NCBI RefSeq assembly: GCF_006345805.1
Contig: NC_043000.1
Coordinates: forward strand, 162,440,001 to 162,504,000
Direction of reading: 5' to 3'
DNA length: 64,000 nucleotides
From: Octopus sinensis
Lineage: Eukaryota
Shown here: one piece after another, positions 1,062-63,575 of the stretch
How positions within the stretch are numbered: the first letter of the stretch is position 1
Layout: every line of letters starts with the position of its first letter
Program-made: the position numbers and the translations under genes
Notes under the pieces: model-generated
What the model saw: only the letters and a program-made list of their open reading frames with translations
What the model was told of the DNA's origin: nothing
Databases searched by the model: none

Positions 1062-1325
1062 AGCATTATTTACATTATTTACATTCAACGGATATTTGTC
1101 CTCATCTTGTTTGTTGTTAACACAACATTTCGGCTGATATACCCTCCAGCCTTCTTCAGGTGTCTTGGGGAAATTTCGAACCTGGGTTCTCATTCCTAAG
1201 GTGTTTTCCGATGTTGCTGTTGTTATTATTATTATTATTATATTATTATTCACGTCACTGCTTGGAATCGAACTCGGAATCTTGGGTGTTAGTAGCCCGC
1301 GCTCTTAACCACTATGCCATATGCG
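1062..1325 (-). mobile_element. tRNA-headed SINE-like element with (AAT)n linker and hammerhead-containing tail
   Basis: Minus strand: A-box TGGCATAGTGG (1309-1319), B-box GAGTTCGATTCC (1264-1275), (AAT)n ~1222-1250, HHR motif 1120-1163, tail ending GTAAATAATGTAAATAATG. Confidence 0.7.
1120..1163 (-). ncRNA. Minimal type I hammerhead ribozyme motif
   Basis: ACAC-CTGAAGA-A-GGCTG-GAGGGTATAT-CAGCC-GAAA-TGTT-GTGT. Helix I ACAC/GTGT, helix II GGCTG/CAGCC. GAAATGTT is probably a decayed GAAACGTT. Confidence 0.65.
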
Positions 1326-40560: not shown

Positions 40561-41047
40561 ATGACATACCTATGCATGCACTCACATACGTATGTATGTG
40601 AGAATATGTATACATGCATATAAGCACACACACACATATATAAACAGACATATAAATACGCCTACAAAACACATGCATATATATATACATGCATGCCCAC
40701 GCGCATCCGTAAATGTATTCATACACGCATATGCGTGCGCATACATGTATATATACATGCACATGCACATACGTGCGAGCAGGTTCATCCGCATGCGCGC
40801 ATACAGATACTTACGTATACTTATATACACATATACATGATCATTCATATATATTTGTATATATATGCCCGTACACATACATACAGACACACGCATATTA
40901 TAGATTATATATATAATATATATATATATATATATTATATATATTATATATATAAAATATTATTAGAGACAAAACCACTATTTTGCAAAAACAAACAAGG
41001 AAAGACTTAATCAATACATAAAATGTTAAAAATAGTCAAAAAAACGC

Positions 41048-41090
41048 CCACTACAATCGTTTCTTGTCTTGATCGACAATCTTCAGGTGG
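41048..41090 (-). ncRNA. Type I hammerhead ribozyme (inverted copy)
   Basis: Reverse complement of 41142-41184. Confidence 0.8.
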
Positions 41091-41141
41091 ACTTCCAATA
41101 AGTCAGTTCAAATTATAATTTGAAACTGACTTATTGGAAGT

Positions 41142-41184
41142 CCACCTGAAGATTGTCGATCAAGACAAGAAACGATTGTAGTGG
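41142..41184 (+). ncRNA. Type I hammerhead ribozyme, minimal PLE type
   Basis: CCAC-CTGAAGA-TTGTC-GATCAA-GACAA-GAAAC-GATT-GTA-GTGG. Intact core with a GUA cleavage triplet. Confidence 0.85.
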
Positions 41185-41357
41185 CGGTTTTTTTGACTAT
41201 TTATTAACATTTTATGTATTGATTAAGTCTTTCCTTGTTTGTTTTGCAAAATAGTGGTTTTGTCTCTAATAATATTTTATAATATTTTACTATAAAATTG
41301 GATTTAATCCTAATTGATTTTTTCCCTGTAAATTTGGATTTATCCCTAATATTTATT

Positions 41358-41415
<58 letters not shown>

Positions 41416-59400: not shown

Positions 59401-59584
59401 TGTTGTTAAATGCTCGAAATACGCGAGTGGAAAAACAGCCAACAACTGTTGAATGGTCGTTCTTTATGTTGTTTGCTTTGTGTTTCATTTGTGCCTTTCG
59501 TTGTTCAAAAATAGTTCATATTCCATGTACTCGTACTTCGTATTTTTTTGTTGTACACGTCTGATGAGATCCTGTGCTCACATA

Positions 59585-59624
<40 letters not shown>

Positions 59625-59651
59625 TATATATAAATATATATATATAAATAT

Positions 59652-59715
<64 letters not shown>

Positions 59716-59988
59716 TGTAACTACGTACATATACATATACATATGTATATATGCAAATTATATATATATATATATGTAATGTGAAATAGAAAGATGAATA
59801 ATCTTGTAGTAGATTAATCAAAAGTTTAACCGATACCTTAGTAGCAAAAATCACAGCAGTAAACAGCACGGTTGGAGGTACAACCATCTGGCGTTACAAC
59901 CGTGCGTTGGTGCGGATAATTAAAATTTAAACATTATTGGTGAATTGTAGAAATGGAGCTGAACGCAGATTGAACAGAAATCGTTTTA

Positions 59989-60077
59989 TTTCATTCTACA
60001 CGTGTTTCGAAAGGCACAAATTACCAAAATCCGATTGAATAATGGGACCATATTGTGTCTTTCTCTTCAGGAAGAAA
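59989..60077 (-). ncRNA. Type I hammerhead ribozyme, sense to the GIY-YIG ORF
   Basis: Reverse complement of 61675-61763. Confidence 0.85.
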
Positions 60078-60678
60078 AAAGGAAATCCGTTGGAAACACA
60101 AAAACAGAACAGAGGCGGAGCAAAAAACAAATCGAACTGTGCTCCTAAGAGCCCATGGCGAAACTGTTTATCAGTGTATGTTGAGAACCGGTGGCTGAAG
60201 AATTCAACGGGTCAGGCATCGGTCAATCATGTGGGTGAGGGTGTATAGATGTTCTTTGTGACCGAGAATAAAGTTCTGACTATTTAAGGAATATTGGATG
60301 TTTTATAAGGGGCGAGAAAAAATCTACTTAGAGACGTGTGTGTGTGTATACTGTTCTATATATGTGTGTGTTGCGTAGGGGTAGAAAACATTTTTTGTGT
60401 ACGTGTGTGCGTTTGATCGTTCGGCTGTCAGTGGCTACTGCCGTGATAACCGTTGGGTGGCAGAAAGAAAAAAATAAAAAAATATATATATATTATGTTT
60501 TATGTGTGTGTGTGTTCATCTGAGCCTGCCTTGTCAAGGAAACCCCCCGCTGTGAGAAAACCAAGCCCCGTTTGTCTTACAGGAGTAATTCCCCTTGCAG
60601 TGGTTAATCGTAGATATCTTAAAGGCTATTTCAGAATTTGTTACCAAGGGCTATGGGTGCCGGTATTATTTATAAACG

Positions 60679-61113
60679 CTATTTAAAGGCCAGGAAAGTG
60701 TAACGCCGCCAATGGGGGCATCGAAAAGCCGACTGTAAGAGCCCGTTTACCATCCGGCCTCTGGCAAACAAAATATGGAAGAGTTCGGAGACACAAAGGT
60801 TGCACTGTCTTCTGCCCCTATCAAATGGGAGGGCCACCGACAAAATTGACCATTCCAGCCTATAGCTTAAGTTCGCATCCTTCAGTCGCCATATTAGCTT
60901 ACTGAGTCCCGTGGTCTGGCGCTTGTTCACGTCCCGAAAAGTTGCGTAATGGTTGGAGACACGCAAAGACAATCTTGAGGATGATGCCCCTACATAAGTG
61001 AAGGCATCTGAGTCCGTGTAAACCTTGCATTGGTAGACGGCGTTTTTGATCTTGGAGTTCGCCTTTAAATAGCGTTTATAAATAATACCGGCACCCATAG
61101 CCCTTGGTAACAA
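60679..61113 (-). CDS. GIY-YIG endonuclease domain of a Penelope-like element (144-aa open frame; first ~18 aa come from the inverted arm)
   Basis: NAVYQCKV...TYVGASSSRLSLRVSNH (GIY-YIG plus R..R..H), LSKLIW, WSIL, CNLCVSE, RCPH. No stop codon. Expression unproven. Confidence 0.8.
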   Translation of the reverse strand: MLPRAMGAGIIYKRYLKANSKIKNAVYQCKVYTDSDAFTYVGASSSRLSLRVSNHYATFRDVNKRQTTGLSKLIWRLKDANLSYRLEWSILSVALPFDRGRRQCNLCVSELFHILFARGRMVNGLLQSAFRCPHWRRYTFLAFK

Positions 61114-61674
61114 ATTCTGAAATAGCCTTTAAGATATCTACGATTAACCACTGCAAGGGGAATTACTCCTGTAAGACAAACGGGGCTTGGTTTTCTCACA
61201 GCAGGGGGTTTCCTTGACAAGGCAGGCTCAGATGAACACACACACACATAAAACATAATATATATATATTTTTTTATTTTTTTCTTTCTGCCACCCAACG
61301 GTTATCACGGCAGTAGCCACTGACAGCCGAACGATCAAACGCACACACGTACACAAAAAATGTTTTCTACCCCTACGCCAACACACACATATATAGAACA
61401 GTATACACACACACACGTCTCTAAGTAGATTTTTTCTCGCCCCTTATAAAACATCCAATATTCCTTAAATAGTCAGAACTTTATTCTCGGTCACAAAGAA
61501 CATCTATACACCCTCACCCACATGATTGACCGATGCCTGACCCGTTGAATTCTTCAGCCACCGGTTCTCAACATACACTGATAAACAGTTTCGCCATGGG
61601 CTCTTAGGAGCACAGTTCGATTTGTTTTTTGCTCCGCCTCTGTTCTGTTTTTGTGTTTCCAACGGATTTCCTTT

Positions 61675-61763
61675 TTTCTTCCTGAAGAGAAAGACACAAT
61701 ATGGTCCCATTATTCAATCGGATTTTGGTAATTTGTGCCTTTCGAAACACGTGTAGAATGAAA
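61675..61763 (+). ncRNA. Type I hammerhead ribozyme with extended helix II
   Basis: TTC-CTGAAGA-GAAAGACACAA...TTGTGCCTTTC-GAAAC-ACGT-GTA-GAA. Palindromic ACGT loop, GUA triplet. Confidence 0.85.
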
Positions 61764-61819
61764 TAAAACGATTTCTGTTCAATCTGCGTTCAGCTCCATT
61801 TCTACAATTCACCAATAAT

Positions 61820-61861
<42 letters not shown>

Positions 61862-62029: not shown

Positions 62030-63050
62030 TCATTTATCTATGAATCCCAGTCGTCTGGGTTTGATGCCTCGTGCGTGCAACACATTCTTGTTGTCCAAGT
62101 CGCTTAAAATGGTTTTCTCGATGGAAATACGAGCCAGTCAAGACAGCCATCCTTGGGCCATTGTGCTTCTCAGATATGAGCGGATTCTATACAACTTCTC
62201 TCATTAGAGACTGATGTTAAGGGGTGGGACCGCACTAGCTTAAAAAGTCAAATGGTTTCCAGCATAGCGGGTGTAATTAATTTATGCACCTCTGACTCTT
62301 TTCTTGGAGGAGGATCGGACTCATCTGCCTGTACAATGACAGCAGCTGTATCGTGCAGAATGTTTTCCTTACGATAACCTTCAGCACAATGAATGAAGTC
62401 ATTGAGTTTACTCTGACCATGCTTTATATCGAGTAGCTTTCACTGCAGGATATCAAAGATTTTTCCAGCTTGAGAAAGTATGTTACGAAAGCAATTGATG
62501 AAAAATACGTGAAATCATTCAACTTTGTCAATAGATTGTCTGTTTGACAAAGTGTATCTTCATCCTACTTTTCACAAGAACCTAGAATACTTGTGAGGGC
62601 ATTTTTCAATTTTTTATGCAACAGTTTTATGGATGACACATTTCTTGATCTATAGCACCATCTTGTTTCGCACAGTAATGGAATACTGACGTTAAACTGC
62701 CTAAAAGCGTTTTTCCACCTGGTGCTGGAAGATGTAAATTTACTACATGCTCGTAAATGAGAAAAAAATCATTTTTACTCCACCCACCTTCTCGGCACTT
62801 TTACTCAAGACTAACTTAAGTCTATGGGCATAGCAGTGAATGAAGAACGCGTATTTAAATCCTTTGTCCTTTAGCTTGCTCTGTACTTCGTTTAGCGTTC
62901 CTGCCATTGCAGCTGCTCCGTCGTAATTCTGGCTCATTAATTCATCTGTAGCATCACTGAAGGAGTTCAACGCTGTTGCGATCACGTCAGTCAGTCTTGT
63001 AACACTTTTATCGTCACCGACTTCATAGAACCCAAGAACTACGACGCCTG
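62030..63050 (-). pseudogene. hAT transposase relic (Tip100/ZMYM1-like)
   Basis: QNYDGAAAMAG...FIHCYAHRLKLVL and the C-terminal dimerisation-like RIRSYLRSTMAQGWLS at ~62140-62190. Frameshifted. Confidence 0.85.
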
Positions 63051-63109
63051 ACAGCAAAAGTGTGCCTCCCTCAGTTTCTAACCGCCTGACCGAGGATTTT
63101 CCTCTATTT

Positions 63110-63300
63110 AGCAAGGAGTGGGTACTATGCTAGGTTCTGTGGCTGCTGTTCATGCCACAGCTTGCTCTGTGAGTCATCAAAAGTCATTCTCAAACTTGAC
63201 CTTAAGAACGCTTTTAACTACATCAGTCAAGACGTCATCCTCCGCGTAGTAAGGGAGAATTCACCACCATTTTATCACTTTGCTTGGCAAGCCTATCGGC
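63110..63300 (+). pseudogene. RT fragment of a CRE-like non-LTR retrotransposon
   Basis: GVGTMLGSVAAVHAT then (frameshift) VILKLDLKNAFNYISQDVILRVV...AWQAY. Confidence 0.65.
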
Positions 63301-63575
63301 ATGGTCACCCGGAGGCGCCCTCTGCGGGAACGGTCTGCAGTGCTGTTGGTGTTGTATCACTGTTGCAGGCGATTGATGGCGCTGACATGGATATTGTAAG
63401 CTTTTGGAACAACCAGAGAACGCTGTCGTACTTGCAATCGGCCAACACCCTGAAATTTGGGTCTCAGCCATAAACCAGCAGGTCTTGAAAAATTTACGCT
63501 TACATCCCCGAAATAAATGTATACCACATAAAAATGATTTTTAAAAATATCACGTTTCTTTTGCTGTTCAGTGTA

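What the first reader, a model, noticed from the sequence alone, without database searches (positions are those of the whole stretch)
59777..61824. 1.9-kb near-perfect foldback: GIY-YIG nuclease in the loop, hammerhead in each arm
Seen: ~763-bp inverted arms with about 2 differences, a 370-bp loop that is almost exactly an uninterrupted GIY-YIG domain with C-terminal CxxCxxE...CxH, an intact HHR with palindromic ACGT loop in each arm, a 150-bp tail and (TA)n flanks. The inner arm boundary falls in the last four codons, and the inverted arm supplies an in-frame N-terminus with Met, giving a stand-alone 144-aa frame. Known: PLEs have a C-terminal GIY-YIG, HHRs and sometimes inverted 5' pseudo-LTRs; the Cys pattern recalls the Naiad clade (tentative). 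Inference: a very recent insertion from an active family. If the same junction recurs, it would be an RT-less nuclease-plus-ribozyme mobile unit.
Basis: partly seen in the sequence, partly recalled or inferred. Interest (0 to 1): 0.85.

Follow-up and report, generated by a model that had tools for sequence, protein, structure and literature searches.

The report
Truncated Penelope retroelement with inverted copy
This is a little-diverged, 5'-shortened copy of an abundant Penelope-like retrotransposon family, joined head-to-head with a shorter inverted copy inside a TA repeat, a layout already described for these elements, and it is most likely an inert one-off insertion rather than a new nuclease-plus-ribozyme mobile unit.

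Summary
The anatomy is real: arms of 762/763 nt with 2 differences, a 370-nt loop holding a complete GIY-YIG domain, one hammerhead per arm, a 153-nt tail and (TA)n flanks. The Met frame is 139 aa, not 144. The nuclease is Hydra-type (C-terminal, CxxC/CxH, no CCHH), not Naiad. Public contigs show a very abundant family whose nuclease continues upstream in frame, on one contig for 1.9 kb more. They show four other inversion joints, all different and each in one contig, and an end point shared with the short arm. An inverted 5'-truncated copy is the described PLE layout (Penelope-13_HM). An unrelated nuclease-free foldback lies at 41 kb in this window. 41% of possible breakpoints would supply an in-frame Met, and the predicted hairpin buries both ribozyme and start codon. 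Recurrence of this junction was not directly countable, but the copy's own alleles are rare or absent in four runs. What is new is modest: the family appears to lack the CxCX5C linker proposed to aid (TA)n targeting, yet inserts in (TA)n.

The parts
59588..59775 (.). Left (TA)n-rich target tract (imperfect)
   Evidence: sequence
59776..59928 (-). 153-nt one-sided 3' tail of the sense copy
   Evidence: covered by family contigs in all four runs laid from 59780 on
59929..60690 (-). Left arm: last 4 codons and 3' UTR of the sense copy
59989..60077 (-). Type I hammerhead of the sense copy (predicted cut after 59997)
   Evidence: descriptor hit and folds; no Rfam hit
60691..61060 (-). 370-nt loop: GIY-YIG nuclease domain of Hydra type; 61060 is the 5' truncation point
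   Evidence: native continuation seen
60679..61098 (-). Chimeric 139-aa frame: Met and 12 further residues come from the inverted arm, the rest is the native nuclease domain
61061..61823 (+). Right arm: inverted, more strongly 5'-truncated copy ending at the family's short terminus
   Evidence: four X2 contigs end at the mirror position 59929 in (TA)n
61675..61763 (+). Type I hammerhead of the inverted copy (predicted cut after 61755)
61824..61859 (.). Right (TA)18 target tract
   Evidence: sequence

Best explanation
It is a 1,285-nt 5'-truncated copy of an abundant Penelope-like retroelement family with a Hydra-type C-terminal nuclease, joined head-to-head to a 763-nt inverted copy of the same 3' end inside (TA)n, and it is likely an inert one-off product of retrotransposition. 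Shown: the anatomy, the nuclease fold and motifs, the family's abundance, the in-frame native continuation past the junction, other inversion joints, and the shared short terminus. Inferred mechanism (about 0.55 within this reading): the parent's RT-nuclease protein cut both strands of a (TA)n tract. Each nick primed reverse transcription on family RNA from one of two start points 153 nt apart. One cDNA stopped just upstream of the nuclease domain and the other just inside the stop-codon region, and their ends were joined with little or no microhomology. The loop is only the length difference between the two cDNAs. Any read-through RNA is predicted to form a 762-bp hairpin that buries the single sense hammerhead and the borrowed start codon.
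For: Parent: X8 contig 31 (2,534 nt) matches 60516-61063 with 8 differences and no gap, then continues about 1,925 nt upstream. The X1 loose end at 61060 (2 contigs) translates by hand in frame to NPNRIRFTSV, 8 of 10 identical to P0072 at that place. P0151 (named Octopus sinensis) carries RT motifs, thumb, linker and nuclease in one chain and is 64% identical to this nuclease over 58 aa. Its RT region retrieves 97 proteins; 71 of them also match this nuclease, 69 of those 71 have YRDD, 65 CxxCxxE and 67 CxH. Abundance: 8,005, 2,523, 1,414 and 107 contigs laid in four runs. Four other inversion-type joints, all different, each in one contig at depth 5-58 against family depths of 1e4-1e6 in the three DNA-type runs. 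This copy's letter at 60694 is at most 0.2% of depth in X1 and 0 in X2, X12 and X8. 303 of 731 arm breakpoints give an in-frame Met. MFE of the unit pairs 762 arm bases, hammerhead included. Precedent: inverted 5'-truncated copies, tails and (TA)n targets in PMC8557442, with Penelope-13_HM carrying such a copy and hammerheads on both strands. Two-strand cutting and two RT start sites bounding the tail in PMC11167929. In-window control: an unrelated hammerhead foldback without nuclease at 40946-41365.
Against: No listed contig bridges 61060/61061 and the piece table hid 12,123 records, so neither the junction's existence in reads nor its uniqueness was counted directly. The 1.9 kb upstream on contig 31 was not readable, so RT there is inferred. 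The private letters at 60694-5 could postdate formation of the unit, which weakens them as a marker for siblings. Three of the four other joints have a breakpoint at mirror positions 60631-60684, near this one; that may be a hotspot or an effect of the stretch I laid. The nuclease keeps Y32, Y45, G47, R56, H60, E115 and N128, so the chimeric frame could in principle give an active protein. The tail (153 nt) is longer than the described 30-40 nt. None of the four runs is shown to be the window's own individual.
Confidence: 0.87

Rival explanations
1. The foldback is itself a mobile unit: an RT-less nuclease-plus-hammerhead element copied in trans by the parent's RT, with the inverted arm supplying a start codon.
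For: The truncation leaves the whole catalytic domain intact and in frame with a Met. The cis-acting 3' end and tail are present. Non-autonomous PLE derivatives exist (MRC1 passage in PMC8557442; retrozymes). Junction recurrence was not directly countable.
Against: An in-frame Met arises at 41% of breakpoints. Other joints in the family are all different and at single-contig depth, and this copy's own alleles are at or near zero in four runs. Each strand carries only one sense hammerhead, transcribed after its own antisense and paired with it in the MFE fold, and the Met lies inside the same duplex. The same geometry occurs without a nuclease at 41 kb.
Confidence: 0.04
2. Same truncated PLE, but the inversion arose by copy-back: one cDNA folded or switched template onto itself at 60690 and was copied back to 59929, instead of two separately primed cDNAs. 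The confidence given is for this step, within the best explanation.
For: Both arms share alleles that are rare in the family (60097: 0.5-1.7% of depth in the three DNA-type runs; 60556: 0-7%), so they come from one source locus. The native bases after 61060 match the arm at 2 of the next 3 positions. Self-priming was proposed for head-to-head PLE inversions (PMC3846280 passages). The 41-kb foldback has essentially no loop.
Against: There is no exact microhomology at the junction. The short arm ends exactly where other copies end in (TA)n, as expected of an RT start site rather than of a copy-back stop. Two RNAs from one locus would also share alleles.
Confidence: 0.35
3. One arm is an assembly or chimeric-read artefact.
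For: The arms are 99.7% identical and no listed contig bridges the junction. The window is a scaffold with a 100-N gap. PLE inversions are known to trouble assemblies.
Against: The flanks are not mirrored and the tail is on one side only. The right arm stops at a terminus used by other copies, and the arms differ at two sites. Inversion joints of this family occur in independent runs.
Confidence: 0.05

Closest known systems
Hydra clade of Penelope-like elements (Craig et al. 2021, PMC8557442), especially Penelope-13_HM
   Same: C-terminal GIY-YIG without CCHH; CxxC and CxH around the conserved E and N; canonical type I hammerhead near the 3' end; (TA)n target. Penelope-13_HM has a 5'-truncated inverted copy at its 5' end with hammerheads on both strands.
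   Different: The family's linker lacks CxCX5C. The 3' UTR is 903 nt and the tail 153 nt. This copy has lost all of RT.
Hydra-1_Obim (Octopus bimaculoides consensus in the same supplement)
   Same: Hydra-type nuclease, CUGAAGA hammerhead, (TA)n target; octopod, like the closest named protein relatives here.
   Different: By eye a different family: its nuclease and hammerhead sequences differ and it keeps CxCX5C. Two 16-nt window motifs had 0 hits in the supplement.
Naiad PLEs
   Same: GIY-YIG, (TA)n targeting, inverted 5' copies.
   Different: Naiads have an N-terminal nuclease with CCHH and no canonical hammerhead; all three differ here.
Penelope/Poseidon PAc (Frangieh et al. 2024, PMC11167929) and Adineta Penelopes (PMC3846280)
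   Same: Two termini bounding a one-sided tail, head-to-head inversions, AT-rich targets; Asn-rich inserts between RT and nuclease, as in relative P0151.
   Different: Canonical PLE nucleases carry CCHH and tails of 30-40 nt; no ORF start was recognised in this tail.
Non-LTR retrozymes
   Same: Type I hammerheads, PLE-related, no RT.
   Different: Retrozymes are same-strand tandem repeats without coding sequence; here the hammerheads lie on opposite strands.

Membership tests
C-terminal EN+ Penelope-like element | GIY-YIG nuclease with conserved R, H, E, N at the end of the ORF | tested here: met
   R56, H60, E115, N128 in the 149-aa frame, stop follows; I-TevI Z 10.0
C-terminal EN+ Penelope-like element | RT upstream in the same ORF | tested here: inconclusive
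   Absent from this copy (tblastn). Family continues upstream in frame and for 1.9 kb, letters unseen beyond 30 nt. Relative P0151 has RT motifs and nuclease in one chain
C-terminal EN+ Penelope-like element | 5' truncation, inverted 5' copy, one-sided tail | tested here: met
   tail is 153 nt against the described 30-40 nt
Hydra clade | No CCHH (two Cys between GIY and YIG) | tested here: met
   One Cys only between Y32 and Y45; 1 of 151 relatives has two
Hydra clade | CxxC before E and CxH after N | tested here: met
   C109-C112-E115, N128, C137-H139; 131 of 147 and 118 of 137 relatives long enough to score
Hydra clade | Canonical hammerhead near the 3' end | tested here: met
   Descriptor hit, 0 of 2000 shuffles; same layout as the supplement table; Rfam no hit; cleavage untested
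Hydra clade | Insertion into (TA)n | tested here: met
   Both flanks; AT-repeat loose ends in X2 (4+1 contigs) and X12 (1)
Hydra clade | CxCX5C linker upstream of the nuclease | tested here: not met
   The 10 native residues seen hold no Cys where the third linker Cys sits, and Ser stands at the next conserved Cys. The 7 closest relatives with enough upstream sequence lack the motif, against 67 of 71 RT-linked relatives that have it. Hence filed as a Hydra-type variant
Hydra clade | RWK and DKT motifs in RT; placement by RT phylogeny | not testable with these tools
   Parent RT not retrievable; among 71 RT-linked relatives 37 have RW[KR] and 47 DK[TS], many being partial
Naiad | N-terminal nuclease | tested here: not met
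   Stop and 3' UTR follow the nuclease
Naiad | CCHH motif | tested here: not met
Naiad | No canonical hammerhead | tested here: not met
   Hammerhead present
Non-LTR retrozyme | Same-strand tandem hammerheads, non-coding | tested here: not met
   One hammerhead per strand, coding loop
   No direct count possible; indirect evidence against

The most novel reading that the evidence does not exclude
The foldback is a self-contained RT-less mobile unit: a stand-alone 139-aa Hydra-type nuclease between two hammerhead arms, copied in trans and recurring with the same junction. A milder and much likelier novelty (about 0.7; interest about 0.4) is an octopod-like Hydra lineage that lost the CxCX5C linker yet still targets (TA)n, using two 3' termini 153 nt apart.
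Probability: 0.04. Interest if true: 0.75.

Novelty: new variant of a known kind. Interest (0 to 1): 0.27.

Why it matters
The structure itself is ordinary for Penelope-like elements. Two side results have some value. First, Craig et al. tied (TA)n targeting to the Cys-rich linker; this abundant family appears to lack that linker and still inserts in (TA)n, so it is a natural test of that idea. Second, near-identical copies with two defined termini and many different inversion joints are good material for telling two-strand priming from copy-back, an open step in PLE transposition. Such foldbacks would also be sources of long double-stranded RNA; one RNA-like contig shows clustered A>G changes, a lead only.

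Tried and rejected
No whole genome is held, so copy number and junction could not be counted in the source assembly. Pfam had no hit for the nuclease and nothing significant for six RT-bearing relatives. Foldseek had no match at E<=0.001, though GIY-YIG enzymes were in its weak rows. Rfam found no hammerhead in the window or either foldback; its miRNA-like rows reflect hairpins and TA repeats. Word-index searches with the nuclease found nothing among 119 longer and 3 similar-length candidates, which is weak evidence. A junction pattern scan of metagenome contigs contained a typing error and is void. The protein scan of that collection found no relative among 158 pattern matches; it is unlikely to hold the host. 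The careful tree did not finish. The quick tree used 80 rows: the window's nuclease plus relatives among the top 75 hits and four chosen extras. It has few columns and no non-Hydra outgroup, so it shows grouping (10 rows, SH-aLRT 99) but not clade placement. 43 of 100 hits with long upstream sequence lack the linker motif, most apparently through unrelated or frameshifted N-termini; only the close group shares a homologous replacement. Four look-ups of earlier scan findings returned nothing. Literature searches listed no paper on an RT-less nuclease-plus-hammerhead PLE unit or on a linker-less Hydra family; this rests on titles and abstract starts in an open-access library. Repbase and Dfam were not available and may hold this family under another name. 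Naiad, retrozyme and DNA-transposon TIR readings were rejected; the last because one side carries a tail and the family shows many different truncation points.

Full report
Observation. The foldback is as described. The arms are 59929-60690 and 61061-61823, with one indel and one substitution. The loop is 370 nt, the one-sided tail is 59776-59928, and TA repeats lie on both sides. The minus-strand frame 61128-60682 has 149 aa; from the arm-derived Met at 61098 it has 139 aa, not 144. Pfam has no hit. phmmer finds 2,664 relatives at E<=0.001, and the predicted structure (pLDDT 80) matches I-TevI at Z 10.0, rmsd 2.4 over 89 residues. Each arm holds a type I hammerhead core with a long stem II and a self-complementary 8-mer at stem III; 0 of 2000 shuffles reproduced it. 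Rfam does not detect it, and activity is untested.

Which clade. PMC8557442 (passages, section 11 and supplement parts 2, 52 and 58 seen) defines Hydra elements by a C-terminal nuclease without CCHH, CxxC and CxH motifs around E and N, a CxCX5C linker, canonical hammerheads and (TA)n targets. Naiads have an N-terminal nuclease with CCHH and no canonical hammerhead. The window's protein has C109-C112-E115, N128 and C137-H139, one Cys between the two Tyr motifs, and ends the ORF. Among 151 relatives scored, 131 of 147 long enough have CxxCxxE, 118 of 137 have CxH and 1 has two internal Cys. The closest named relatives are Octopus sinensis predictions. One of them, P0151, joins RT motifs, thumb, an Asn-rich stretch and a nuclease 64% identical over 58 aa. 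Its RT region retrieves 97 proteins; 71 also match this nuclease and 67 of those have the Cys linker. The host is therefore likely an octopod; this is inferred and was not determined.

The family. Nineteen runs, under 8 organism labels and 8 studies, hold at least half of the sampled words. I laid 4 of them, all contig sets, on 59780-61160: 8,005, 2,523, 1,414 and 107 contigs. Summed depth is no copy number, but it reaches 1e5-1e6 in two runs and is highest toward the 3' end, as 5' truncation would give. X8 contig 31 matches 60516-61063 with 8 differences and runs on for about 1,925 nt upstream of the nuclease; those letters were not shown. Two X1 contigs give the native bases past 61060, which read in frame NPNRIRFTSV, 8 of 10 identical to P0072. 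So 61060 is a truncation point of a longer ORF. Four X2 contigs end in (TA)n at 59929, the mirror of the right arm's end, so the family has a short terminus besides the tailed one. Four other inversion-type joints appear: 60737 to mirror 60684, 60126 to mirror 60670, 59860 to mirror 60631, and 59865/59980. All differ and each is in one contig at depth 5-58. This copy's letter at 60694, four bases from the inner boundary, is at most 0.2% of depth in X1 and absent in the other three runs. Against my reading: no listed piece bridges the junction, 12,123 pieces were hidden, three of the other joints have a breakpoint near this one, and the private letters may postdate the unit.

Is the stand-alone frame meaningful? 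With the truncation fixed, 303 of 731 inverted-arm breakpoints give an in-frame Met without a stop. The MFE fold of the whole unit pairs 762 arm bases, including the hammerhead, and the Met lies in the paired arm. On either strand the single sense hammerhead is transcribed after its antisense copy, so the two-hammerhead dimer described for short stem III motifs (PMC4209133, part 1 of 4 read) cannot form in cis. That paper also notes hammerhead pairs on opposite strands 100-700 bp apart, ascribed to truncated PLEs. The window holds its own control: at 40946-41285 an unrelated 170-nt-arm foldback with a hammerhead in each arm, a one-sided tail of about 80 nt, TA flanks and no nuclease.

Mechanism. 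Shown elsewhere (PMC11167929, parts 1-2 of 4 read): a PLE protein cuts both strands of AT-rich DNA and starts reverse transcription at two internal RNA sites that bound the tail. Inferred here: nicks on both strands of (TA)n primed two cDNAs, from 59776 and 59929, which stopped after 1,285 and 763 nt and were joined head-to-head. The arms share alleles rare in the family, so both came from one source locus. Copy-back from one cDNA (self-priming, PMC3846280 passages) remains a fair rival: there is no exact microhomology, but 2 of the next 3 native bases fit. The copy differs from contig 31 at 7 of 545 bases and its arms at 2 of 763, so it is young; polymorphism was not tested.

Comparison and novelty. 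Inverted 5'-truncated copies with tails are the described PLE layout, and Penelope-13_HM in the Hydra clade has it with hammerheads on both strands. By eye the family is not Hydra-1_Obim; Repbase and Dfam could not be checked. It works like a Hydra element but fails one defining feature. The native residues seen hold no Cys at the linker's last positions, and the 7 closest relatives with enough upstream sequence lack CxCX5C. These 7 group with it and two shorter rows at SH-aLRT 99 in a quick unrooted tree. It is filed as a Hydra-type variant. Since it still inserts in (TA)n, it bears on the proposed link between linker and target. The retrozyme preprint 10.64898/2026.07.22.740005 (part 1 of 5 read; its supplements are closed) concerns same-strand tandem units, which this is not. 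My searches listed no report of an RT-less nuclease-hammerhead unit.

Verdict. The RT-less unit is not excluded (0.04), nor an assembly artefact (0.05). Interest 0.27.

Noticed in passing
window 40946-41365: A second, unrelated head-to-head foldback: arms of about 170 nt, 96% alike, almost no loop, a type I hammerhead in each arm (41146 +, 41086 -), a one-sided tail of about 80 nt, TA flanks, no nuclease; likely another PLE family's truncated inversion.
   Followed up: partly
window 60133-60257, run X8 contig 28: One contig (depth 7.4) of a run guessed to be RNA has five A>G changes on the antisense strand that are absent from the three DNA-type runs; 5 of its 6 listed changes are A>G (P about 3e-4 to 5e-3), 9 more are not listed. 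Possibly ADAR editing of family double-stranded RNA; no matched DNA.
   Followed up: partly
window 59780-61820: The family is near-identical across 8 coded organism labels, and three of them share most variant sites; a tandem-type joint 60637 to 60352 occurs in both X2 and X12. Close relatives or recent transfer, not resolved.
   Followed up: no
window 60694-60695: Two adjacent letters private to this copy lie 4-5 nt from the inner arm boundary (Phe here, Tyr in the family); they may be a scar of junction formation.
   Followed up: partly
window 59853-59907 (tail): A stem-loop is predicted in the 153-nt tail; a candidate protein-binding or RT start signal.
   Followed up: no
window 1125-1159 (-): A further isolated hammerhead descriptor hit.
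   Followed up: no
window 62743-63129 (-) and 63090-63473 (+): A frame resembling a hAT transposase fragment (by eye, recalled; no Pfam hit) and a weak RVT_1 match (E 0.04) on the opposite strand.
   Followed up: partly
window 59561-59582: A CTGATGA motif just outside the left TA tract without a following GAAA core; possibly the cut half of another hammerhead.
   Followed up: no
P0004, P0072, P0151, P0153, P0156: Octopus protein records named as kinase-like, myb-like or GATA-like are fragments of Hydra-type PLE ORFs with Asn-rich inserts.
   Followed up: partly
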